From contig NZ_QLIR01000004.1 of NCBI RefSeq assembly GCF_003428155.1, forward strand, positions 1 through 32,000: DNA of 32,000 nt. The letters are read 5' to 3'. Shown in pieces: positions 1 through 12,557 of the stretch (position 1 is its first letter; each line of letters begins with the position of its first letter). This stretch comes from Fastidiosibacter lacustris. GTDB lineage: Bacteria > Pseudomonadota > Gammaproteobacteria > Francisellales > Francisellaceae. The position numbers were made by a program, and so were the translations under genes. A model generated the notes under the pieces. It searched no databases. It worked only from the letters and a program-made list of their open reading frames with translations, and was not told where the DNA came from.

Positions 1-411
1 TTCATTGGTTATTTTGTGCAAATAACCGTGTTTATCATATTGATACCTCATCACAGTATCACTGCTGTTGTAAGGCGCTTGAACCGTAGCGGGAATAAAA
101 TGCTGATCATTCAGATACGTATAACGCGATTGTCTTGTATTGCTTTTATCAGCAGCGTTTACGGTGCTTATGTTTAACAGTCTGTTATGATTGTCATACT
201 CAAACGAGGTGACTAAGCCATTGACTTCATTAGTGATCAATTGAGGCAGTTCAGCTTCAGTAAACTGATAGCTGATCTTCAAAGCATTATCCTCGGTGCA
301 TTGCTGGACGAAAAAAAGGTTATTAGGGCAAGTATTCCCATAAGCGTATACTAAGGGAGACAGTAAAGACGATAGAATAAGGAGAGAGATTATTGAGCTT
401 TTTTTAACCAT
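1..411 (-). CDS. YD-repeat (Rhs-family) secreted protein, N-terminal 137 codons only; the gene continues past the left window edge
   Basis: Hand translation of the reverse strand from ATG (409-411) is open for all 137 codons to position 1. It reads MVKKSSIISLLILSSLLSPLVYA (signal-peptide-like), then YD-type repeats about 20 aa apart: FEYDNHNRLLNIS, RYTYLNDQHF, YQYDKHGYLHKITN. It is not in the supplied ORF track because no stop codon lies inside the window. Confidence 0.6.
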   Translation of the reverse strand, partial: MVKKSSIISLLILSSLLSPLVYAYGNTCPNNLFFVQQCTEDNALKISYQFTEAELPQLITNEVNGLVTSFEYDNHNRLLNISTVNAADKSNTRQSRYTYLNDQHFIPATVQAPYNSSDTVMRYQYDKHGYLHKITNE

Positions 412-875
412 TTTTAACTCTTAAAGTCAGTTTAGGCACTGTTAGCAATAATATGAGGTTATGCCTAAGTAAGGTAGTGTTTTCAAGTAAAAAAATATTG
501 CATTATGTGTGGTGTGGAAATAACAATGCAGCTACTTTTTGTTACTACAAATACTTTGATCAGTTTGTTATCTGACCATTAGAATATAAATTGTAAATTT
601 AGACTTAGTGCTATTCTATCGTATAGAAGCGGTAATATGGTTGATTTTAGCTTGATAAAACAACAACAAAAACTGTTGTATGCATACAAACTCAATTCGA
701 TTAAAAATATAATGTTGCCGTTTCAATCAACTTAATTATGGGGAGAGATCAGATCAAAAGCAATGTGTCGCAACGTGTCAAAAAAGAGATGAGCATTTTG
801 AAGCATTTAGAATAAATTCTTAGAAAAAATGAAGGAATAGAATAAAACCCAGATTAATGGTAGTAGGTTAGGGGG

Positions 876-3800
876 ATGGTATCAATGACTTACCGTGATT
901 TAAAAGTTTTAAAAAATAGAAATCTTGCAGAAGAATACAATAAAATCTGCATAATAATAAGTCAATCTTCCTGGTTAAATGAATTTATTACTGTATTAAG
1001 AGCAGAAGGATGGCAAATTAAAGCAGTTTATACAGACGTTTATGCTTCAATAATGCATAACGATAAGGAAATACTATGTTATCCACTACATAAAGCACTG
1101 TGTGACATTGATAAAACACAGGTAAATTATGTTTTTAGTATTGTGAATCCAATTATCTTGCCTCAACGTATTTTACAAAAATCAATTTGTGTGAACTTTC
1201 ATCCTGCATTGTTACCAAAATATGCTGGAGTATGTCCTGTAAATTGGGCAATTTTTCAGTCTGAAAAAACACATGGTTATACATGGCACTTTTGCAGTGA
1301 GAAAATCGATCAAGGTGCAATATTATTTCAATCAAAAATACCTGTATTGCCAAATGATAATGCAAAAAAACTTATGTTAAGGTGCTACAAAAAAGCTGTT
1401 GATGAGTTTTCTCACGTTTTGGAAATACTACTAGATTCTAAGTTTTGTCTTAGAGAAACAGATTCGATTGAGTATTATGGATATAATAGAAAGCCAAATT
1501 TTTTATTAACAGATTTTGAAGATTATGCAAGTTGCAAAAGACTATTAAATGCATCTGAATCAATGGATTCCTATAACGATTTTGGTGTTGTCAAAATACT
1601 TTTGGGCAAACACTTTTATATTCTTGATGTGCTGAATAAGGCTTTCAATACATCCAAGCAAGCCGATGATAGTATAATTTATTGGAATGGACAGAAATAT
1701 TATGCGCAACTGCGGTCCCTCTATGGTGATTCTGTGATTGAAAATGCGGTCTTGTCTCACATAGAAAGCATATATATACAAAATTATTTTACCCATGTTG
1801 ATAAGCTTGGAAAATACGAATATTATTGGCTGGGTCTTTTAAGAAATTTTATGAGCCCTAAGTTGTTTTCGTATGTTAATTATGCCTATAAGAATGTCAA
1901 TAATCGATTATCTTTTCAATGTGATTTCTTGAATGAAATTGATTTACCTTATAATAAAAAAGAACTTATTTTTGCTTTATGGTGTTGTATTATTTTAAAA
2001 ATCACAAATTACCAAACAAGCACAATTTGGTTAACCCATAACTATGCAATAAATGAAAAGTTACAACCATTGTTTTACCCTTATATTCCTTTTTTGTTAA
2101 AGGAGGTTGAACACACTAGTATCTTGGAATTTATTCAGTTTTTTATAGAGAAAAAAAATAAAATACGAGATAAATATTTTTTTCTGACAGATTTATTCGC
2201 AAGAGATTTTGTACTAAAAGAGGAAAAGGAGCAGTTTTCAAGCTTTTCATTTAGCTTTTCGTATGCAAATAGCATTGCATGTCAAAATCATCCTGTAATT
2301 TTTTATTATGACCAAAATAATAATATGATGTACGTTGATTGTTTTTTACCTGAGAATAGCTTTCTAATAAAAGCTTTAGCACAGTTTGAAACATACTTTA
2401 ACATACTAACTTCATATCATTTGAATTCGAAGTTAAATGAAATTTCGTTGAATAACAGGGTAAAAACGCAAGCTTTTGATATGAATAGGGTCTTGATGCA
2501 AAATACTAAATACCAAAAGCGACTTGAGCAATTGGTTAAAGATAATGCATATGCTCAACCAAATCATACTATTGTTGTACAAAATGATCAGCAATATACC
2601 TATAAAACGTTAGTGAACGATGTCTTACATTTGTCACAAGCTTTGTCTTTCTATATCCCAGCTTCAACAATTATTGGTTTAATTGTTCCACGAGGTTACG
2701 TTTTTATCAAAAATATGTTAGCTATTTTGGAAAATAAGTCTGCCTATTTACCGATTTTCCATGAAATGGATGAAGCTGTCATGCTTGATTTGATGCTCGA
2801 AATTGGCACGTATGGGTTTATCACGGATCGCATGGTTGAGGATGATAGAGTTGCATCCAAAATTAAAATAGATTCAAACTGCTTTTTTTATATTTTTAAG
2901 CAAAAAGAAAAAGTACGGTATTTATCTGATAACGTAGCATACGTGATGTTTACTTCTGGTTCCACAGGCAAACCAAAAGGGATTCCAATTAAACATTCTA
3001 ATATTATTAATTTATGTGAAACAGATTTTATTAGAGGGATTACAAAAAATAAAAAAGTGATGCATAACAGCCAGGTTTCATTTGATGCAGCTACGTTTGA
3101 GATTTGGGGTTCTTTGTTAAACACATCAACTATTTACATTTTGGAAAACTGTTATTTAATGAGAGAAAAGGCTTACGTTTTTGATTTTTGTAAGAAGTAT
3201 TCTATTAATACAATGTGGATGAGCACAAAGCTGTTTGAGTCTTATTTAACAGACATGGCATTATTATCACGGAGCGAGCTTGAATATTTGGTGTATGGCG
3301 GTGAAAGTTGTAATGTTAGCTTAATAAAAAAATTCAGTTCATCTTGCCCATTAAAGTTGATCCATGTATATGGTCCAACAGAGAATACCGTATTTAGTAC
3401 TATACATGAATGGAAACATGACGATGAGAGCTTTTATAATGACTATCCAAATATAGGCAAGCCCTTGAAAAATGTTGAAGTTGAGGTTTATGATAAATAT
3501 TTCAATACAATGCCTTACTACGTTCCTGAGAAGTTGTTTTTGTCTGGTTTAAGCCTTTTTGAAGGTTATCTCAACGCCCCTAATACAACGATTTCTTCCC
3601 AAGATAATAGAGCTGTTTACAACTCAGGAGACATTTGTTACCTAGATGGGAAAGGAGATTTACACATCATTGGTCGTGATGACAAACTCGTTAAATTAAA
3701 TGGTTATCGTATTGAATTGCGTCATGTGGAAAGTATTTTAGCAATTAACCCTGCTGTTACATCCTGTAAAGCTGAAGTGTTCAAGATGGATAATGGTCAG

Positions 3801-5621
3801 CAGTACTTGGTAGCTTTTATCATTAGTGACAATATTAATCAGGATGAATATGAGAAGAGTATTCGCCATACATTACCAAAGTATATGATCCCAAGCTATT
3901 ACTTATATTTGGATAAGTGGCCATTAACAAGAAATGGTAAGCTAGATAGAAAAGCATTAGTCGAACGTTTTAATACTCATATCACCCAGTATCATGAACA
4001 AAAGTTAATTTGTTCAAATACTCTTAGCTTAGATAATATAATTACATTATTTCAAAAAGTTTTACCTAGTAAACATATTGCCTTAGATGGTGATTTTTTT
4101 GACTTGGGTGGAGATTCTTTATCTTTAGTCTATTTAAAGACTGAAGTAAAAAAAAGCTTTGATTTTGATTTGTCATTAGTGCAATTTTTAGAAGCTCCAA
4201 CTCCTAGGGGATTGTATGGTTTATTAACGGATGAAAACAGTACTTCAAATTACAACGTAACGGATTATATATTAAAACGGTTTAATGAATACAAAAAAGA
4301 AATTGATGAGTCTGTAGTAACCGATTCGTTTGACATGGAGGTAAGTTGCAAAAACATTCTTCTTACAGGAGCGACTGGATTTTTAGGAAGCGAGGTCTTG
4401 CGATATTTGTGTCAATATAAGAAAAATACACAAGTATATTGTTTGATAAGAGCAAAAGGTCAAGCATTTGACGTAAGAGTAAATGAATTGTTGCAAAGTT
4501 TGAAGCTTGATCAAGTAAATTTCAGTAATATTCATTTTATCAATGGTGACCTTGAAAAGTTTCAATTTGGACTTTCAGACGACGATTACCATAATTTGGC
4601 TTGCAAGGTAACCTCAATTATTCACTGTGCTTGCCACGTTCACCATTTATATAGCTATAAACAACTTGAGCAAGCCAACGTTTTTTCAACGCTAGAATTG
4701 ATCAAGTTTGCATTTTTAGGGGTAAGGAAAATGATTGTTTACACATCTTCAATATCCGCAGTTGTGCCAAAAGATGTGTCGCAAACGATTTATGAAAAAG
4801 TTTATACAGACATCCATGATTTAGCTTTAGCCAATGGCTATAATCAGACAAAATACGTTAGTGAGCTGCTACTAAATTATGCTCATCAAAAAGGGATGGC
4901 ATGCATTATTGTTAGACCTGGCTGGATTGTTGGTAATAGCCAAAGTGGTTATTTTATAACAGAAAACGATCATTATTCTATGATACTTCGTTCAGTATTA
5001 AGTTTTGGTTATGCGCCAGAATTGAATTTCAATATCAACTTTATACCTGTTGATACATTGTCAGAATTGCTAGTTAAACTAGCAAATCAAGGAAAAGAAA
5101 ATAACAAAAAAATGCAGATTATGAACCTTAAAAATAGCAAACCTCTAGCATGGCAAAGGTTGTTGAAGTTTTTAAATATGAAAAAAAGAAAAGTTATTTA
5201 TGATACAGGTCAATGGTATCAAACACTGTTAAATACAGACGAAAAATCACCGCTATTTGTTTTAAAATCACTTTATGAATCAGCAGACAAATTAAGGTTA
5301 CTGTCAAAGTATCATATTATGAAAATCGATACGACTACATGTAAAGATTGGATGCGTCAATGTGGTATAACATTCCCAAGACTAGGAAGTAAAATCATGA
5401 TGAATTTATTTCAGGCAATTGTTCCAGAATCAACGAATACGCCAAAACCTTTTATGTTGACAAACTGGTGGCAAATTATAGGTGATTTTTTAAATACAGC
5501 AAAAATAAAGGTGATAAAAATACTCAGGAAAAACAAAATAATTTCTATTGTTGGTCCCTTGATTCTCACGTCATTATTGATATATATTTTTGATTTTTTA
5601 AGCATAGTCATTTTAGAGTAA
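876..5621 (+). CDS. Stand-alone single-module NRPS-like enzyme: formyltransferase - condensation-like remnant - adenylation - peptidyl carrier - thioester reductase - C-terminal TM helix
   Basis: 1581-aa ORF. ATG 885 is the more likely start, since the GGGGG at 871-875 lies 9 nt upstream of it and directly abuts ATG 876. Motifs read in the translation: formyltransferase VNFHPALLPKYAG and EKIDQGAI; adenylation A3 YVMFTSGSTGKPKG, A4 FDAATFE, A5 VYGPTEN, A7 YNSGD, A8 GRDDKLVKLNGYRIEL, A9 LPKYMIPS, A10 NGKLDRKAL; carrier FFDLGGDSLS; reductase LLTGATGFLGSE and YNQTKYVSE; terminal hydrophobic helix IISIVGPLILTSLLIYIFDFLSIVIL. Confidence 0.85.
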   Translation: MVSMTYRDLKVLKNRNLAEEYNKICIIISQSSWLNEFITVLRAEGWQIKAVYTDVYASIMHNDKEILCYPLHKALCDIDKTQVNYVFSIVNPIILPQRILQKSICVNFHPALLPKYAGVCPVNWAIFQSEKTHGYTWHFCSEKIDQGAILFQSKIPVLPNDNAKKLMLRCYKKAVDEFSHVLEILLDSKFCLRETDSIEYYGYNRKPNFLLTDFEDYASCKRLLNASESMDSYNDFGVVKILLGKHFYILDVLNKAFNTSKQADDSIIYWNGQKYYAQLRSLYGDSVIENAVLSHIESIYIQNYFTHVDKLGKYEYYWLGLLRNFMSPKLFSYVNYAYKNVNNRLSFQCDFLNEIDLPYNKKELIFALWCCIILKITNYQTSTIWLTHNYAINEKLQPLFYPYIPFLLKEVEHTSILEFIQFFIEKKNKIRDKYFFLTDLFARDFVLKEEKEQFSSFSFSFSYANSIACQNHPVIFYYDQNNNMMYVDCFLPENSFLIKALAQFETYFNILTSYHLNSKLNEISLNNRVKTQAFDMNRVLMQNTKYQKRLEQLVKDNAYAQPNHTIVVQNDQQYTYKTLVNDVLHLSQALSFYIPASTIIGLIVPRGYVFIKNMLAILENKSAYLPIFHEMDEAVMLDLMLEIGTYGFITDRMVEDDRVASKIKIDSNCFFYIFKQKEKVRYLSDNVAYVMFTSGSTGKPKGIPIKHSNIINLCETDFIRGITKNKKVMHNSQVSFDAATFEIWGSLLNTSTIYILENCYLMREKAYVFDFCKKYSINTMWMSTKLFESYLTDMALLSRSELEYLVYGGESCNVSLIKKFSSSCPLKLIHVYGPTENTVFSTIHEWKHDDESFYNDYPNIGKPLKNVEVEVYDKYFNTMPYYVPEKLFLSGLSLFEGYLNAPNTTISSQDNRAVYNSGDICYLDGKGDLHIIGRDDKLVKLNGYRIELRHVESILAINPAVTSCKAEVFKMDNGQQYLVAFIISDNINQDEYEKSIRHTLPKYMIPSYYLYLDKWPLTRNGKLDRKALVERFNTHITQYHEQKLICSNTLSLDNIITLFQKVLPSKHIALDGDFFDLGGDSLSLVYLKTEVKKSFDFDLSLVQFLEAPTPRGLYGLLTDENSTSNYNVTDYILKRFNEYKKEIDESVVTDSFDMEVSCKNILLTGATGFLGSEVLRYLCQYKKNTQVYCLIRAKGQAFDVRVNELLQSLKLDQVNFSNIHFINGDLEKFQFGLSDDDYHNLACKVTSIIHCACHVHHLYSYKQLEQANVFSTLELIKFAFLGVRKMIVYTSSISAVVPKDVSQTIYEKVYTDIHDLALANGYNQTKYVSELLLNYAHQKGMACIIVRPGWIVGNSQSGYFITENDHYSMILRSVLSFGYAPELNFNINFIPVDTLSELLVKLANQGKENNKKMQIMNLKNSKPLAWQRLLKFLNMKKRKVIYDTGQWYQTLLNTDEKSPLFVLKSLYESADKLRLLSKYHIMKIDTTTCKDWMRQCGITFPRLGSKIMMNLFQAIVPESTNTPKPFMLTNWWQIIGDFLNTAKIKVIKILRKNKIISIVGPLILTSLLIYIFDFLSIVILE

Positions 5622-5665: not shown

Positions 5666-7180
5666 TTGGATAAACAAGATAAAGAATTAAACGTTATAGT
5701 AAATCAATATGGAATAATAGAATGTATTGATAGCAAATGTGGAAGTAGCTCAAATTTTACTGCTTTTGTAGGTAAAAGTTATAATGAAGTTTTTAAAAAA
5801 ACACATCTATTTGGTTTGGATATAGACATCAAGGATATAGTACGACTTGATTGGAAATCGAGGAATAATGATATTGAATGCAAAAGGCATTATATAGTAG
5901 TAGTTAATAACCGTGATCACGGTATCGTAAAATATAAGTTAATTAATATAGATGAAATTTTATATACAGCTGAAATGGTAATTAAAGCTAAGACTCATGA
6001 GTTAGAAAGTATTATTGATATGATACCAGGAATCCTTTATTGGAAAGATGGAAGGGGAACCTACATAAAAACAAATAACTCTATACTTGCTGGTGGCATT
6101 AAAGTTAAAGATTTGCTTGGAAAAAATGACAAAGAGATTTGGTCAGAAAAAGCAGAAGAACTCAGTCAGCATGATAATCAAATTATGATGGGCATAGTTG
6201 AAGAAAAAGTGTTAGAAGAGTCTACAGTAGAAAATGGAGAAATTAAATATTATATTGCACATAAGAAGCCATACAAAGACCATAATAACAAAATAATTGG
6301 CATTATTGGCTTATCGATAGATATAACAGAACGCAAAAAACTTGAAGCTGAGACCATCCGCCAAAAAAATCAACTTGAAAAAAAGTTAGAATATCAAAAG
6401 AACTATTTTAAAGCTTATGGATACGATTATGTGGACGCACTTAAAAAAATCTCCGATGCACTTGAGAATATTGAAAAACGACTAATGAGACTTGATATGC
6501 CAACTGGGGTACGTAGTGAACTCAATGATGAGTTTTATAATATTAATGAAAGTTTATCTGACATATACTCGCTTTATCAAAAAATAAATACATCAATATT
6601 AGATCAAGAACGCAATAATGATGATCTAGAAAAAAATCAAATGCCACTTCACTTAGAACATTTAGTTGAAACGGAAGTCGATTTAGCAAAGGCTTGCATT
6701 AGTGCTGAATTTGATGTGAATGTCTCGTTTGATATGGATGAAAAATCCAAACAAAAGCTTTATGTCGATTATAAAAAAGTCAGGCACATTATCCGCACTT
6801 TATTTGCCAATTACACAAAAGCCATAGATAGAGACAGTAGAAAAAAAGACATTCGTTTAACTATCACTGCCGAAGATGGTATGAAAGATAAATTGTATGT
6901 TACTTTTGAATTTGATGGCAATATGCCCTTTCTAGAATTAGAAGACGGTAATATTCGCGCAGAGCATCTTGTCTATAAATCTCAAAGCCATATCGCCACA
7001 GATAAACATAACTTTGCTTATGATCTTTCCTTAGCCAAGTATTATGCTGACTTGCTCTGTGATGGCGAAGAATTGAATGATTCATTATTTGAAGGACCAA
7101 GCTTTTCGTTTACCTTACCGTTTCGCAAAGTCGAAAACGATGGCAACGCTAAAGTATTTAAGCCTGTGTTGATTGAATGA
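5666..7180 (+). CDS. Cytoplasmic PAS-domain sensor protein with a degenerate histidine-kinase-like C-terminal half
   Basis: 504-aa ORF with a TTG start 7 nt after AAAGGAG (5652-5658), 44 nt after the NRPS-like gene. PAS core: IPGILYWKDGRGTYIKTNN...IIGIIGLSIDITERKKLE. The H-box position reads FKAYGYDYVDAL, with no His. The N-box-like IIRTLFANYTKAI is retained. The G1 position (FEFDGNMPF) and G2 position (FAYDLSLAKY) lack the glycines. No TM segment is seen. Confidence 0.7.
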   Translation: MDKQDKELNVIVNQYGIIECIDSKCGSSSNFTAFVGKSYNEVFKKTHLFGLDIDIKDIVRLDWKSRNNDIECKRHYIVVVNNRDHGIVKYKLINIDEILYTAEMVIKAKTHELESIIDMIPGILYWKDGRGTYIKTNNSILAGGIKVKDLLGKNDKEIWSEKAEELSQHDNQIMMGIVEEKVLEESTVENGEIKYYIAHKKPYKDHNNKIIGIIGLSIDITERKKLEAETIRQKNQLEKKLEYQKNYFKAYGYDYVDALKKISDALENIEKRLMRLDMPTGVRSELNDEFYNINESLSDIYSLYQKINTSILDQERNNDDLEKNQMPLHLEHLVETEVDLAKACISAEFDVNVSFDMDEKSKQKLYVDYKKVRHIIRTLFANYTKAIDRDSRKKDIRLTITAEDGMKDKLYVTFEFDGNMPFLELEDGNIRAEHLVYKSQSHIATDKHNFAYDLSLAKYYADLLCDGEELNDSLFEGPSFSFTLPFRKVENDGNAKVFKPVLIE

Positions 7181-9732: not shown

Positions 9733-11223
9733 TTACTCACTCCATCTTTTAGCACGTTCAACTGCTTTATGCCAATCATATAAATAGTGACTACGCTTTT
9801 GTTCATCTAGCTTATTGTTAAACTCCTGATCAACTGACCATAAGCTTTTAAGCTCATCAATCCCTGACCAATAACCAACAGCAAGTCCAGCCAGATAGGC
9901 TACACCTAACGCTGTTGTTTCCAGTACTTTTGGTCGGATCACTTTAGCATTCATCATATCTGCTTGAAATTGCATTAAGAAACTATTCGCTACTGCACCA
10001 CCATCAACACGCATTTCAGTAATATTCATTCCTGTATCTGCCATTTTTGCATTAGCAATATCTGTGACTTGATAAACAATGCTCTCTAACGCTGCTCTTG
10101 TAATATGTGCTTTTGAACTGCCTCGCGTTAAGCCTAGTATACTGCCACGAGCAAATTGATCCCAATGTGGCGCACCTAAGCCCACCATTGCTGGAACAAG
10201 ATATACCCCACCATTATCTTCAACAGATAGTGCTAATTTCTCGCTATCACTGGCGTGTTGCAAAATGCCTAGTTCATCTCTTAACCACTGAATGACTGCA
10301 CCTCCCATAAACACACTACCCTCTAAGGCATAAGTTGTCTGTCCATTTAGCTGCCATGCAATTGTAGTTAGTAAATTGTTATTTGAAATAGCAGGTTTAC
10401 TGCCTGTATTCATCATCATAAAGCAACCTGTGCCATATGTGGTTTTAAGCATTCCTGGATCGGTACACATCTGACCGAAAAGTGCAGCTTGTTGGTCACC
10501 TGCTACCCCTGCAATCGGAATCTTAGTCGCAAAAAGTGTCGTTGCAGTTTGTGAATAAATTTCGCTAGATGATCTTACCTCTGGCAACATACTTCTAGGA
10601 ACATCAAATAAAGCTAATAAATCATCATCCCAGTCATTGCTATGAATGTTATATAACATCGTTCTACTGGCATTAGTGGCATCGGTTGCATGGACCCTTA
10701 AATTGGTAAATTTTGCCATCAGCCAACTATCCACCGTACCAAAGCAAAGCTTGCCTTGCTTGGCTTTCTCGCGCGCACCTTCTACATTATCTAAAATCCA
10801 TTTCACTTTGGATGCGCTAAAATAAGCATCAACAACCAGTCCTGTTTTTTCTTGTATCATTTTTGCAAACCCATCTGTCTTGAGCTTATTACAAAATTCT
10901 GACGTGCGGCGATCTTGCCAGACAATAGCGTTATATATTGGCTTGCCTGTCTCACGTTCCCAAACAACGGTTGTCTCACGCTGATTTGTAATCCCGATTG
11001 CTGCAATATTTTTACCATTTATTCCTGCATTGGCGATTGCTGTTGCAGCTACTGCTGCTTGTGTACTCCAAATCTCCCTTGGATCATGTTCAACCCAGCT
11101 TGGCTTTGGGTAAATCTGTCTAAACTCTTGTTGTGCTATTTCAACAACTTGTCCCATTTGATCGAAAATAATTGCTCTTGAACTAGTTGTTCCTTGATCT
11201 AGAGTTAGAATATATTGTGACAT
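9733..11223 (-). CDS. glpK: Glycerol kinase
   Basis: 496 aa with [25 protein letters not shown] and [10 protein letters not shown], full length. No glpF or glpD is adjacent. Confidence 0.95.
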
Positions 11224-11324: not shown

Positions 11325-12557
11325 CTATCTCTGTTCTTCTTTAATAAAAAGTAAAATAATCAAAGCTAGAACAATACTGCCAGGCAACATACTAAATGCG
11401 ATTTCATAGCTTTGAATACTATAGTTTGCACCAGAAACACCCGGCTGTGTGTAATCTAAAATCATACCGACCAATCCTTCAAATGTACCACCAAATATTG
11501 GTTCACCTGTGTTGATCAATGCCACTGCGGTTGCCATTACCCATAACGGATTGACCTTACGCCCTACGACAAACACCAACGTAAAAGCACTAGTGACAAC
11601 TCCATACAAAATACAGCACACAATTAGCTGCCATACGCTTAAATGTAAATATAAAATTGCTAACAATGACAACAATCCAAGCACGGTACACCACATCATG
11701 ATTGGTACACAGCGTATTTTAACTGAAAGCTTTCCCATGATTGGCGCACCGATCCCCATACCAATAAAAATACAGGATATAAAATAACTTGCCTGAGTTA
11801 TCGTTAAATCATACTTTTGAACAAAAAAGCTATTCCCCCATAAACTACCAAACGCATCAATCGTCGTAAAAATAAGTCCTGAATATGTCATTAATAATCA
11901 ATTATTATGCGACATGATCACACGTTTAATCATGTGTATAATACTTTTTTGCTCTGCTTTTGACTGAATTTCCTCTTCAACGTTCACAGGTCCCTGCTTA
12001 GAATCATCACGTACAACAAACCAATAGATAATTGCAAATATAACACCAATAATAGCACAACAGTACAACCCTTGTTGCCATCCAACGGCATTAAATAACG
12101 CAGATAATGGCGCTTGTCCTACTACCGCACCTGTCATTGCCGCCGTTAATAACAAACTACTGGCAACTGAAAACCCTTTTTCATCAAACCATGTAGCCGC
12201 AGCTTTCATGTAACTTACTGTAGCAAACGCGACTCCAATTCCCATCATCGTACGTCCTATAAAGGCAAAAACGATGTGAGTTGAGGCTGCAAACAATAAA
12301 ATACCAAATGCACTTACGAGCAATGACACAGTACTAATGCTTCTACAGCCAAAGCGATCTAATAACAAACCTGCAAAAGGTTGTACCAGCAAAACACAAT
12401 ACAAAAACATGGCTGACAAGAAACCCATTTGCGCCGAGTTAAGGTCAAAATGAATTTTAATGTCACCTGCAATCAAGCTCGGAAAGACTAAAGCAATGTA
12501 CTTATAGAACAACAAAAATGAACTCAAAACAATAACAATCCACGCATATCCTTTCAT
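11325..12557 (-). pseudogene. MFS transporter interrupted by a single in-frame TGA (two 6-TM halves: 11898-12557 and 11325-11891)
   Basis: The N-half carries MFS motif A, GLLLDRFGCR. The TGA stop at 11898-11900 and the next ATG at 11889-11891 are in the same frame, 2 codons apart (...MSHNN*LLMTYSG...). The stop falls in the central cytoplasmic loop. Confidence 0.7.

What the first reader, a model, noticed from the sequence alone, without database searches (positions are those of the whole stretch)
876..5621. Orphan single-module NRPS-like enzyme combining an N-terminal formyltransferase with a terminal reductase and a membrane tail
Seen in sequence:
- One polypeptide carries an apparently competent formyltransferase domain (N-x-H in VNFHPALLPKYAG, Asp in EKIDQGAI).
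- It has a complete adenylation domain (A3-A10 motifs listed in the feature), a carrier domain with the DSL serine, and an SDR-type thioester reductase (TGATGFLGSE, YxxxK in YNQTKYVSE).
- It ends in a hydrophobic helix about 25 aa long.
- No second module, thioesterase, PPTase, MbtH or exporter is visible nearby.
- Hand-counted sample lines give roughly 27-32% GC here, against about 40-50% in the flanking core genes.

Established knowledge: formylation-domain initiation modules are known from linear gramicidin LgrA and anabaenopeptilide ApdA. Reductive release is known from LgrD, Lys2 and carboxylic acid reductases.

Inference:
- F, A, T and R in a single module predicts an N-formyl amino aldehyde or alcohol. 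I am not aware of a characterised enzyme with this architecture.
- Asp235 (FDAATFE) and Lys517 (NGKLDR) argue for an alpha-amino acid substrate.
- My rough hand-extracted specificity code (D-A-F-?-V-G-V-V-F-K) looks aliphatic (Val/Ile/Leu-like) but is unreliable.
- N-formyl amino aldehydes could act as protease inhibitors or as host formyl-peptide-receptor ligands.
Basis: partly seen in the sequence, partly recalled or inferred. Interest (0 to 1): 0.72.

Follow-up and report, generated by a model that had tools for sequence, protein, structure and literature searches.

The report
Formylating single-module NRPS paired with PAS sensor
This is an intact one-module peptide-synthetase-like enzyme of Fastidiosibacter lacustris, predicted to make an N-formylated valine- or isoleucine-type aldehyde or alcohol; it belongs to a family already noticed in Legionella whose members nearly always sit beside, and are twice fused to, a PAS sensor kinase, which points to a small-molecule signalling pair.

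Summary
The ORF 876-5621 is real and intact (1581 aa) and under purifying selection (dN/dS 0.16 against a 98.7%-identical strain). It carries a formyltransferase, adenylation, carrier and thioester-reductase domain, all with catalytic residues in place.

- Residues 290-548 are the C-terminal half of a condensation domain without its HHxxxDG motif.
- The gene is not an orphan. The next gene (5666-7180) encodes a PAS protein. All 14 distinct loci with a same-architecture homologue that I examined (Legionella, Tatlockia, related MAGs) have a cytoplasmic PAS-histidine-kinase gene beside the synthetase. Two proteins only 55% identical to each other are natural synthetase-kinase fusions.

The architecture is not new.
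- Tobias et al. 2016 predicted N-formyl amino aldehyde, alcohol or oxazoline products for Legionella "cluster C".
- A mollusc Fmt-A-T-R enzyme was partly characterised in 2025.

This copy differs in three ways.
- It lies outside Legionellales.
- It has a C-terminal membrane helix not seen in 92 relatives.
- Its PAS partner has lost the phospho-acceptor histidine and the ATP-lid motifs.

The specificity code is DAFWVGVVFK (Val/Ile-like). The product and the signalling role are inferred, not shown.

The parts
876..5621 (+). Synthetase gene (1581 aa from ATG 876; the start is more likely ATG 885, giving 1578 aa = WP_192877932.1)
   Evidence: dN/dS is 0.16 against L001.
936..1433 (+). Formyltransferase catalytic (N-terminal) subdomain, aa 21-186, with Asn107, His109 and Asp145
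   Evidence: Pfam PF00551, E 5.5e-19. PDB hits to sugar N-formyltransferases, ArnA and the LgrA F domain. Leave-one-out family HMM E 6e-43. N/H/D are invariant in 93 of 93 proteins.
1464..1742 (+). Formyltransferase C-terminal (Fmt-like) subdomain, about aa 197-289; weakly conserved here
   Evidence: Leave-one-out HMM E 1.9e-6. Homologues carry PF02911 Formyl_trans_C.
1743..2519 (+). Remnant of a condensation domain: the C-terminal half only, without HHxxxDG, running into the C-A linker (aa 290-548)
   Evidence: hhalign of the family alignment against genuine C domains: 98.4% probability, E 5e-15, C-domain columns 198-468 of 470. Pfam Condensation positions about 188-456 hit in homologues. Leave-one-out HMM on the window sequence E 7.5e-15.
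2538..3980 (+). Adenylation domain (aa 555-1035), specificity code DAFWVGVVFK
   Evidence: The best solved match is LgrA.
4035..4223 (+). Carrier (thiolation) domain, aa 1054-1116, with phosphopantetheine Ser1081 in GGDSL
   Evidence: Pfam PF00550. The Ser is invariant in 93 of 93 proteins.
4350..5420 (+). Thioester reductase domain (aa 1159-1515), with TGATGFLG and Tyr1322/Lys1326
   Evidence: TIGR01746 above its cutoff. PF07993. Y and K are invariant in 93 of 93 proteins.
5538..5618 (+). C-terminal hydrophobic helix (aa 1555-1581, IISIVGPLILTSLLIYIFDFLSIVILE), a predicted membrane anchor
   Evidence: Kyte-Doolittle 19-mer mean 2.53. Present in L001. Absent from the 92 other family members.
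5666..7180 (+). Partner gene: PAS-domain protein (504 aa, WP_116963540.1), 44 nt downstream, with no terminator-like site between the genes
6023..6337 (+). PAS_4 domain (aa 120-224) of the same subfamily as the PAS domains of the partner kinases (34-39% identity)
   Evidence: Pfam E 1.8e-12. Alignment. Identity matrix.
6338..7177 (+). Probable degenerate histidine-kinase core: H-box His replaced by Tyr (YGYDYVDAL against SHDIRTPL), G1 and G2 ATP-lid motifs lost, no REC or Hpt domain
   Evidence: Alignment. hhalign against partner kinase cores is only weak (probability 26%, E 7e-4, in register over the ATPase domain). No Pfam hit. The AF2 single-sequence model was unusable.

Best explanation
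The gene encodes a working stand-alone formylating NRPS module.

Proposed reaction (inferred from conserved residues and characterised relatives).
1. The adenylation domain activates a branched aliphatic L-amino acid. The code is Val/Ile-like.
2. The amino acid is loaded on the phosphopantetheine arm at Ser1081. This needs a PPTase encoded elsewhere.
3. The N-terminal formyltransferase, using N10-formyl-tetrahydrofolate, formylates the tethered alpha-amine, as the LgrA F domain does.
4. The terminal reductase releases the thioester with NAD(P)H. The product is N-formyl-valinal or -isoleucinal (two electrons), or the corresponding amino alcohol (four electrons, as the mollusc FmtATR T-R pair does).

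Structure. The half condensation domain between F and A has no catalytic motif. It most likely serves as the structural platform that holds the A domain. The C-terminal helix would tether the enzyme to the inner membrane.

Family and role. The enzyme is a divergent member (24-28% identity) of the Legionellales 'cluster C' family. Genomic linkage suggests that the small, uncharged product of this family is a signal tied to the adjacent cytoplasmic PAS sensor kinase. In Fastidiosibacter that partner keeps its PAS domain but has lost the kinase catalytic motifs. The receptor arm is therefore degenerate or rewired here, while the synthase is maintained.

Status of the steps. Shown: domain identities, intact catalytic residues, purifying selection, synteny and fusions. 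Inferred: substrate, product, redox level, membrane anchoring and the signalling role.

Rough confidences: enzyme chemistry 0.7; functional coupling to the PAS protein family 0.8; the PAS protein being the receptor of the product 0.4.
For: - Domains and motifs.
- N107/H109/D145, Ser1081 and Tyr1322/Lys1326 are invariant in 93 of 93 same-architecture proteins.
- dN/dS is 0.16, with 36 synonymous and 24 non-synonymous changes against 'Ca. Nebulobacter'.
- The best solved match of the A-T region is LgrA, whose first module makes formyl-Val. The F domain matches the LgrA F domain and sugar formyltransferases.
- Code extraction is validated because the same alignment columns return canonical codes in relatives: DAWTIAAICK, DAFWLGGTFK, DILQLGLIWK, DVWHISLIDK.
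- The half C domain.
- A PAS-kinase gene is adjacent in 13 of 13 other distinct F-C*-A-T-R loci. In my own scan it is the only PAS hit within the flanks held, up to 9-10 kb on each side where the contig allows.
- The kinases have no membrane segment. Most are PAS-HisKA-HATPase-REC-Hpt.
- Two fusion proteins, P0243 and P0147, are 55.5% identical to each other.
- A PPTase lies next to one fusion. An aldo-keto reductase lies next to one homologue, as LgrE does in the gramicidin cluster.
- Literature: the same product was predicted for Legionella cluster C (PMC5126622). The mollusc T-R pair reduces N-formyl-tyrosyl thioesters to alcohols (PMC11869996).
Against: - No product has been isolated for any bacterial member.
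- The window code DAFWVGVVFK matches no canonical code exactly: 7 of 10 positions to Val and 6 of 10 to Ile, judged against codes I recalled from memory.
- No PPTase, exporter or response regulator is in the 32-kb window.
- The partner here lacks the phospho-acceptor His. In the sister strain it is frameshifted in an A7 run, with 4 non-synonymous to 1 synonymous differences by my own reading of that two-sequence alignment. The receptor may therefore be non-functional in this lineage.
- A mirror-tree test of synthetase against PAS divergence gave no signal once close pairs were removed (r = 0.08).
- Adjacency and fusion show coupling. They do not show that the PAS domain binds the product.
- Two-electron or four-electron release cannot be told from sequence.
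Confidence: 0.6

Rival explanations
1. The product is a bioactive weapon or host-directed metabolite, for example an N-formyl amino aldehyde that inhibits proteases of protist hosts or competitors. In this reading the neighbouring PAS kinase only controls expression in response to some other cue such as redox, oxygen or a metabolite.
For: - Peptide aldehydes made by reductase-terminated NRPSs are well-known protease inhibitors (established knowledge; also PMC10548850 and PMC7586950, listed).
- The producers are protist-associated: Legionella, and Fastidiosibacter / 'Ca. Nebulobacter' in Euplotes (PMC9837558).
- In this lineage the synthase is conserved while the PAS partner decays. That fits a function which does not need the receptor.
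- No co-divergence signal between synthase and PAS.
Against: - A single formylated amino aldehyde is a weak inhibitor scaffold compared with di- or tripeptide aldehydes (inference).
- Strict adjacency over 24-45% identity, plus two independent fusions to the sensor, is unusual for a mere pathway regulator.
- The kinases are cytoplasmic, and no response regulator with a DNA-binding domain is linked to them.
Confidence: 0.3
2. The gene is a decaying horizontally acquired relic with no current function in Fastidiosibacter.
For: - AT-rich relative to its flanks (31.4% against 37.7-40.8%).
- The most divergent member of the family (24-28% identity).
- The partner gene is degenerate here and frameshifted in the sister strain.
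- The genome is reported to carry many pseudogenes (PMC9837558).
Against: - A 4.7-kb frame stays open in two strains with dN/dS 0.16.
- Every catalytic residue is intact.
Confidence: 0.05
3. The formyltransferase-like domain does not formylate the carrier-bound amino acid. It is either inactive scaffolding or acts on another acceptor, so the enzyme simply makes a free amino aldehyde that dimerises to a pyrazine, as the ATRed and AusA-type enzymes do.
For: - Minimal A-T-R enzymes give pyrazines (PMC7586950 abstract).
- The window protein's Pfam hit covers only profile positions 90-176 of Formyl_trans_N.
Against: - The Asn/His/Asp triad and the HxxLLPxYxG folate loop are kept in 93 of 93 proteins over deep divergence.
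- The leave-one-out HMM covers the whole N-terminal subdomain.
- The LgrA precedent shows the same fusion logic.
Confidence: 0.05

Closest known systems
Legionella 'cluster C' monomodular NRPS (Tobias et al. 2016, PeerJ, PMC5126622); TE-terminated variants are clusters G and I
   Same: - Formyltransferase, A, T and terminal reductase in a single module.
- The same predicted product: an N-formyl amino aldehyde, alcohol or oxazoline.
- Clustered with a regulator gene, and a signalling role was suggested.
- My searches recover the same family in L. cardiaca, L. maioricensis and many Legionella and Tatlockia MAGs.
   Different: - The window protein is only 24-28% identical to these proteins.
- It is from Fastidiosibacter (Thiotrichales), not Legionellales.
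- It carries a C-terminal membrane helix not seen in 92 relatives.
- Its partner has lost the kinase motifs and the REC and Hpt domains.
- I could not see the paper's figures, so equating cluster C with this family rests on its text description.
Mollusc FmtATR of the bursatellin/oxazinin pathway (JACS 2025, PMC11869996)
   Same: - The stated domain order Fmt-A-T-R.
- About 180 kDa.
- Predicted N-formyl amino alcohol product.
- The T-R pair was shown to reduce N-formyl/N-acyl aminoacyl thioesters to alcohols.
   Different: - Animal-encoded, Tyr-activating, and part of a multi-enzyme pathway.
- No sensor partner.
- I did not have the sequence, so homology to the window protein was not tested, nor whether the mollusc enzyme contains the half C domain.
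Linear gramicidin synthetase LgrA initiation module, with the LgrD reductase domain and the LgrE aldo-keto reductase
   Same: - An F domain formylates carrier-bound Val.
- LgrA is the best solved-structure match of the window's A-T region (E 3e-110 for the two-module LgrA chains, which match in two stretches; 2.7e-56 for the initiation module alone, 5es5) and also matches the F domain.
- The pathway ends with reductive release followed by an aldo-keto reductase. One homologue locus (L006) also has an adjacent AKR.
   Different: - In LgrA the F and A matches are about 65 residues apart. Here they are about 370 apart, because an Fmt-like C-terminal subdomain and a half C domain intervene.
- LgrA feeds a 16-module assembly line. 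Formylation and reduction are on different proteins.
Autoinducer synthase and sensor-kinase pairs LqsA/LqsS (Legionella) and CqsA/CqsS (Vibrio)
   Same: The logic of an adjacent small-molecule synthase gene and a sensor histidine kinase gene, in the same kind of bacteria (established knowledge).
   Different: - Unrelated enzymes: a PLP-dependent acyltransferase making alpha-hydroxyketones.
- Those sensors are membrane-bound, whereas the PAS kinases here are cytoplasmic.
- No experimental link between product and kinase exists here.
Minimal A-T-R enzymes (Xenorhabdus ATRed, PMC7586950) and AusA-type pyrazinone synthetases
   Same: Reductive release of amino or dipeptide aldehydes by a TIGR01746-type reductase. 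AusA is the top NCBIfam hit, though far below its cutoff.
   Different: There is no formyltransferase. The free amine lets those aldehydes dimerise to pyrazines or pyrazinones. N-formylation would block that route (inference).

Membership tests
F-C*-A-T-R monomodular NRPS family of Legionellales ('cluster C' type) | N-terminal formyltransferase domain with the Asn-His-Asp catalytic triad | tested here: met
   N107, H109 and D145 are present; invariant in 93 of 93 proteins. Pfam E 5.5e-19.
F-C*-A-T-R monomodular NRPS family of Legionellales ('cluster C' type) | Half condensation domain (C-terminal lobe, no HHxxxDG) between F and A | tested here: met
   Leave-one-out family HMM hits window aa 290-524, E 7.5e-15. 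Family profile against C domains: 98.4% probability, columns 198-468 of 470.
F-C*-A-T-R monomodular NRPS family of Legionellales ('cluster C' type) | One A domain for an alpha-amino acid, one carrier domain with Ser, a terminal thioester reductase with YxxxK; total length about 1520-1630 aa | tested here: met
   The protein is 1578-1581 aa; the family range is 1521-1630 aa.
F-C*-A-T-R monomodular NRPS family of Legionellales ('cluster C' type) | Adjacent gene for a cytoplasmic PAS histidine kinase (usually PAS-HisKA-HATPase-REC-Hpt) | tested here: inconclusive
   An adjacent PAS protein of the same PAS subfamily is present. It lacks the H-box His, the G1 and G2 motifs, and the REC and Hpt domains.
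F-C*-A-T-R monomodular NRPS family of Legionellales ('cluster C' type) | Product is an N-formyl amino aldehyde or alcohol | not testable with these tools
   A prediction only, both here and in PMC5126622.
LgrA-type formylating initiation module | F domain directly followed by the A domain (short linker), feeding a downstream condensation domain | tested here: not met
   About 370 residues lie between the F and A matches, against about 65 in LgrA. There is no downstream C domain; the module ends in a reductase.
LgrA-type formylating initiation module | Formyl transfer from N10-formyl-THF to aminoacyl-S-carrier | not testable with these tools
   The catalytic residues are conserved. Activity was not assayed.
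Carboxylic acid reductase (CAR) / Lys2 type A-T-R enzymes | Equivalog-level similarity to CAR or alpha-aminoadipate reductase | tested here: not met
   NF041592 scores 122 bits against a cutoff of 1300. TIGR03443 scores 228 bits against a cutoff of 1030.
Autoinducer synthase / cognate sensor pair | The sensor binds the synthase product and changes its output | not testable with these tools
   Only genomic linkage is available: synteny in all loci and two fusions. The co-divergence test was uninformative.

The most novel reading that the evidence does not exclude
The F-C*-A-T-R synthetase and its PAS hybrid kinase form an uncharacterised, widespread cell-cell or intracellular signalling module of protist-associated Gammaproteobacteria. 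N-formyl amino alcohols or aldehydes would be the signals. Different 'dialects' would be set by the A-domain code: Val in 42 of 93 proteins, Phe-type in about 25, plus Tyr, Ile, Gly and Ser. The soluble PAS domain would be the receptor. The Fastidiosibacter copy would be a laterally acquired, membrane-anchored producer that has lost or rewired the receptor. It might, for example, 'speak' to other bacteria or to its ciliate host without listening.
Probability: 0.35. Interest if true: 0.8.

Novelty: new variant of a known kind. Interest (0 to 1): 0.55.

Why it matters
For Legionella, only the Lqs alpha-hydroxyketone system is known to me as a cell-cell signalling system (established knowledge). 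The 2016 survey raised NRPS-derived signals only as a suggestion (PMC5126622).

The data here turn that suggestion into a sharp, testable hypothesis.
- A two-gene unit (synthase plus cytoplasmic PAS hybrid kinase) is conserved across very divergent genomes.
- The two genes are fused twice.
- The amino-acid specificity is variable.
- The unit occurs in culturable species such as L. cardiaca and L. maioricensis, where knock-outs and in-vitro reconstitution are feasible.

The Fastidiosibacter copy shows that the module moves between protist-associated lineages. It also shows that the synthase can be kept while the receptor decays.

The half condensation domain explains a 260-aa stretch that Pfam leaves blank in this protein. 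It also suggests how these initiation modules arose: a formyltransferase replaced the N-terminal lobe of a C domain.

Tried and rejected
- AF2 model of aa 1-553 with a 5-sequence alignment. pLDDT was 54 and the middle region was unreliable, so no fold search was run.
- AF2 single-sequence model of the PAS protein. pLDDT was 34, unusable.
- Word-indexed protein search with the N-terminal alignment. It returned only Fmt-like proteins.
- Pfam on the window's own middle region gave no hit. Homology had to be shown through the family profile.
- Mirror-tree test of synthetase against PAS identity. r = 0.68 overall but 0.08 without near-identical pairs, so it is uninformative.
- Promoter and terminator scans. 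Counts were not above shuffles in this AT-rich DNA. The only use is that no terminator-like site lies between the two genes.
- Supplement search of PMC5126622 for the kinase annotation of cluster C found nothing useful.
- The window's own genome was not among the genome-contig hits. The organism was identified by exact protein look-up instead.
- Rejected: frameshift or assembly fusion artefact (the same frame in two strains and 92 other proteins).
- Rejected: CAR, Lys2 or AusA membership (far below cutoffs).
- Rejected: an ArnA-like lipid A function (the A-T-R part is NRPS-type and LgrA is the best structural relative).
Full report
**What is there**

Window 876-5621 (+) is one open frame of 1581 codons. 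Pfam and NCBIfam find these domains:
- a formyltransferase domain, aa 93-177, E 5.5e-19;
- an adenylation domain, aa 555-899, plus its C-terminal part, aa 951-1022;
- a carrier domain, aa 1055-1116;
- a thioester reductase, aa 1160-1515 (TIGR01746, 228 bits, above its cutoff of 213).

The last 27 residues form the only strongly hydrophobic stretch of the protein, with a Kyte-Doolittle 19-mer mean of 2.53.

**Organism and integrity**

An exact-sequence look-up identifies the protein as WP_192877932.1 of Fastidiosibacter lacustris, annotated 'thioester reductase domain-containing protein' and starting 3 codons later. The next gene is WP_116963540.1, 'PAS domain-containing protein'. F. lacustris belongs to Thiotrichales, family Fastidiosibacteraceae.

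A 98.7%-identical copy lies on contig JAMBMW010000037 of 'Ca. Nebulobacter yamunensis', a Euplotes endosymbiont of the same species by ANI (PMC9837558). Between the two copies the synthetase has 36 synonymous and 24 non-synonymous changes, giving dN/dS 0.16. The gene is therefore maintained by selection. It is neither an assembly fusion nor a pseudogene.

The gene is 31.4% GC. The neighbouring core genes are 37.7-40.8% and the window is 36.0%.

**The unexplained 380 residues**

Between the formyltransferase catalytic subdomain and the A domain lie two pieces.
- An Fmt-like C-terminal subdomain. PF02911 hits homologues, and the leave-one-out HMM on the window scores E 1.9e-6.
- A region of about 260 aa with no Pfam hit in this protein.

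In homologues that second region matches the Pfam Condensation model at positions about 188-456 of 456, with E down to 1.3e-10. A profile of ten family members aligns to a profile of genuine condensation domains with 98.4% probability (E 5e-15). The aligned part covers C-domain columns 198-468 of 470, so it lies after the HHxxxDG motif at columns 138-144 and runs into the C-A linker. A family HMM built without the window sequence still hits window aa 290-524 at E 7.5e-15.

The true order is therefore F (two subdomains), half C domain (C*), A, T, R, membrane helix. LgrA lacks this insert. Its F and A matches are about 65 residues apart, against about 370 here.

The F-C*-A-T unit is a common initiation unit in multimodular NRPSs of cyanobacteria, Photorhabdus and others.

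**The family**

Searches with family alignments recover 93 proteins with the order F-C*-A-T-R, 1521-1630 aa long. Where they are named, they come from Legionella (L. cardiaca, L. maioricensis, many MAGs), Tatlockia and unclassified Gammaproteobacteria. In all 93 the following residues are intact:
- formyltransferase Asn, His and Asp;
- the carrier Ser;
- the reductase Tyr and Lys.

The window protein is the most divergent member. It is 24-28% identical to the others, which are 30-45% identical among themselves in the 12-locus subset compared. It is also the only one with a hydrophobic C-terminal extension.

**Specificity**

Stachelhaus positions were read from alignment columns anchored on the core motifs. 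The same columns give textbook codes in relatives, which validates the mapping:
- DAFWLGGTFK (Val), 42 of 93;
- Phe-type codes, including the exact GrsA code DAWTIAAICK, about 25 of 93;
- DASTIAAVCK (Tyr), DILQLGLIWK (Gly), DVWHISLIDK (Ser), and Ile-like codes.

The window code is DAFWVGVVFK. It is unique in this set and closest to the Val and Ile codes. The amino-acid assignments of these codes rest on published code tables recalled from memory, not on a predictor run here.

**Not an orphan**

The gene 44 nt downstream (5666-7180) encodes a 504-aa protein with a PAS_4 domain.

Every other F-C*-A-T-R locus I examined has a PAS-histidine-kinase gene immediately beside the synthetase. It is usually downstream and often overlaps the stop codon. 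In Tatlockia it is divergent upstream. This holds in metagenomic contigs, MAGs and complete genomes. Full-length partners are PAS(-PAS)-HisKA-HATPase_c-REC-Hpt hybrid kinases without membrane segments. In the 12 loci covered by my own scan, the PAS profile hit nothing else within the flanks held, up to 9-10 kb on each side where the contig allows.

TE-terminated relatives in Legionella MAGs also have an adjacent PAS kinase. The two-module relatives in a related Gammaproteobacteria MAG have one about 1.7 kb upstream. F-initiated NRPSs of other phyla have no adjacent PAS kinase; only two weak PAS or kinase hits turned up, several kb away.

Two proteins, P0243 (2327 aa) and P0147 (2213 aa), are only 55.5% identical to each other. 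Both are continuous F-C*-A-T-R-PAS-PAS-kinase fusions. One of them is followed by an Sfp-type PPTase gene.

Conserved adjacency plus independent fusion is strong evidence that the two proteins work together. It does not show how.

**The partner in this window**

Its PAS domain is 34-39% identical to those of the partner kinases, which is more than the synthetases share. The rest is degenerate.
- The H-box reads YGYDYVDAL where the kinases have SHDIRTPL.
- The G1 and G2 ATP-lid motifs are gone.
- REC and Hpt are absent.
- Profile comparison with kinase cores is only weakly positive: probability 26%, E 7e-4, in register.

In the sister strain a 1-nt deletion in an A7 run breaks the frame. The receptor arm therefore looks degenerate or rewired in this lineage, while the synthase is conserved.

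**Prior art**

Tobias et al. 2016 (PMC5126622) described Legionella 'cluster C' as a monomodular NRPS. It was predicted to give an N-formylated amino acid, reduced by a C-terminal reduction domain to the aldehyde or alcohol, possibly cyclising to an oxazoline. They described TE-terminated variants (clusters G and I). They noted clustering with a regulator gene as a hint of signalling. No compound was isolated.

A mollusc Fmt-A-T-R enzyme of about 180 kDa was reported in 2025. Its T-R pair reduces N-formyl/N-acyl tyrosyl thioesters to alcohols (PMC11869996).

The architecture and the predicted chemistry are therefore known. The items below were not in the text or supplements I could search of that paper (its figures were not available to me), and further literature searches turned up no other report of such a system:
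- the half C domain;
- the strict PAS-kinase pairing and the fusions;
- the spread of specificities;
- this out-of-order copy with a membrane anchor and a pseudo-kinase partner.

**Mechanism and verdict**

Most likely (0.7) the enzyme loads Val or Ile, formylates it on the carrier and releases N-formyl amino aldehyde or alcohol. It is very likely (0.8) functionally coupled to the PAS-protein family. Whether the PAS domain senses the product (about 0.4), or the kinase merely regulates production of a bioactive compound (about 0.3), cannot be decided from sequence.

Noticed in passing
window 21811-24525 (+): A 904-aa ORF with no Pfam hit, in a second AT-rich block (31.6% GC) between murB and the tuf-rpl cluster. 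Possibly another laterally acquired or effector-like gene.
   Followed up: no
window 11325-11891 and 11898-12557 (-): Two adjacent ORFs both match MFS_1, separated by a stop. This is either a split (pseudogenised) MFS transporter or two half-transporters. It is the only transporter-like gene near the synthetase.
   Followed up: no
L001 5466-6449 (= window 5666-6650): In 'Ca. Nebulobacter yamunensis' the PAS gene has a 1-nt deletion in an A7 run that truncates it after the PAS domain. The last ~50 nt of the contig diverge from the window. The contig ends on both sides of this two-gene unit.
   Followed up: partly
P0243 (locus L093 3048-10031) and P0147: Natural fusions of the whole synthetase with a PAS-PAS-histidine kinase (with a REC domain in P0243). 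They are 55.5% identical to each other. L093 has an Sfp-type PPTase gene directly downstream (10380-11156).
   Followed up: partly
L006 302-1243: An aldo-keto reductase gene ends 6 nt before the synthetase start in one metagenomic homologue. This recalls LgrE, which reduces the aldehyde released by LgrD.
   Followed up: no
L089 (L. cardiaca CP119078.1) and L091, 7052-17122: A conserved four-gene arrangement: GNAT acetyltransferase, synthetase, PAS-HK-REC-Hpt, and a 640-aa protein without Pfam hits. A possible acetylation step or resistance function was not examined.
   Followed up: no
one search list (e.g. P0039, P0042, P0044; 2900-2980 aa): A numerous class of proteins of about 2900-2980 aa begins with the same F-C* unit. 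They are probably two-module versions. Their termini and neighbours were not examined.
   Followed up: no
L022, L025, L028 (one Gammaproteobacteria MAG, MFD00731): Three paralogous two-module F-initiated NRPS loci in a single genome. L025 and L028 have a PAS kinase about 1.7 kb upstream; in L022 the corresponding gene is split into two ORFs about 3.3 kb upstream.
   Followed up: no
window 1-411 (-): The 5' end of a gene for a secreted protein with weak RHS-repeat and ACP-like-domain hits, cut by the window edge and divergent from the synthetase.
   Followed up: no
window 850-890: The Shine-Dalgarno-like AGGGGGA abuts ATG 876. ATG 885, the NCBI start, has normal spacing, so the protein is probably 1578 aa.
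   Followed up: partly
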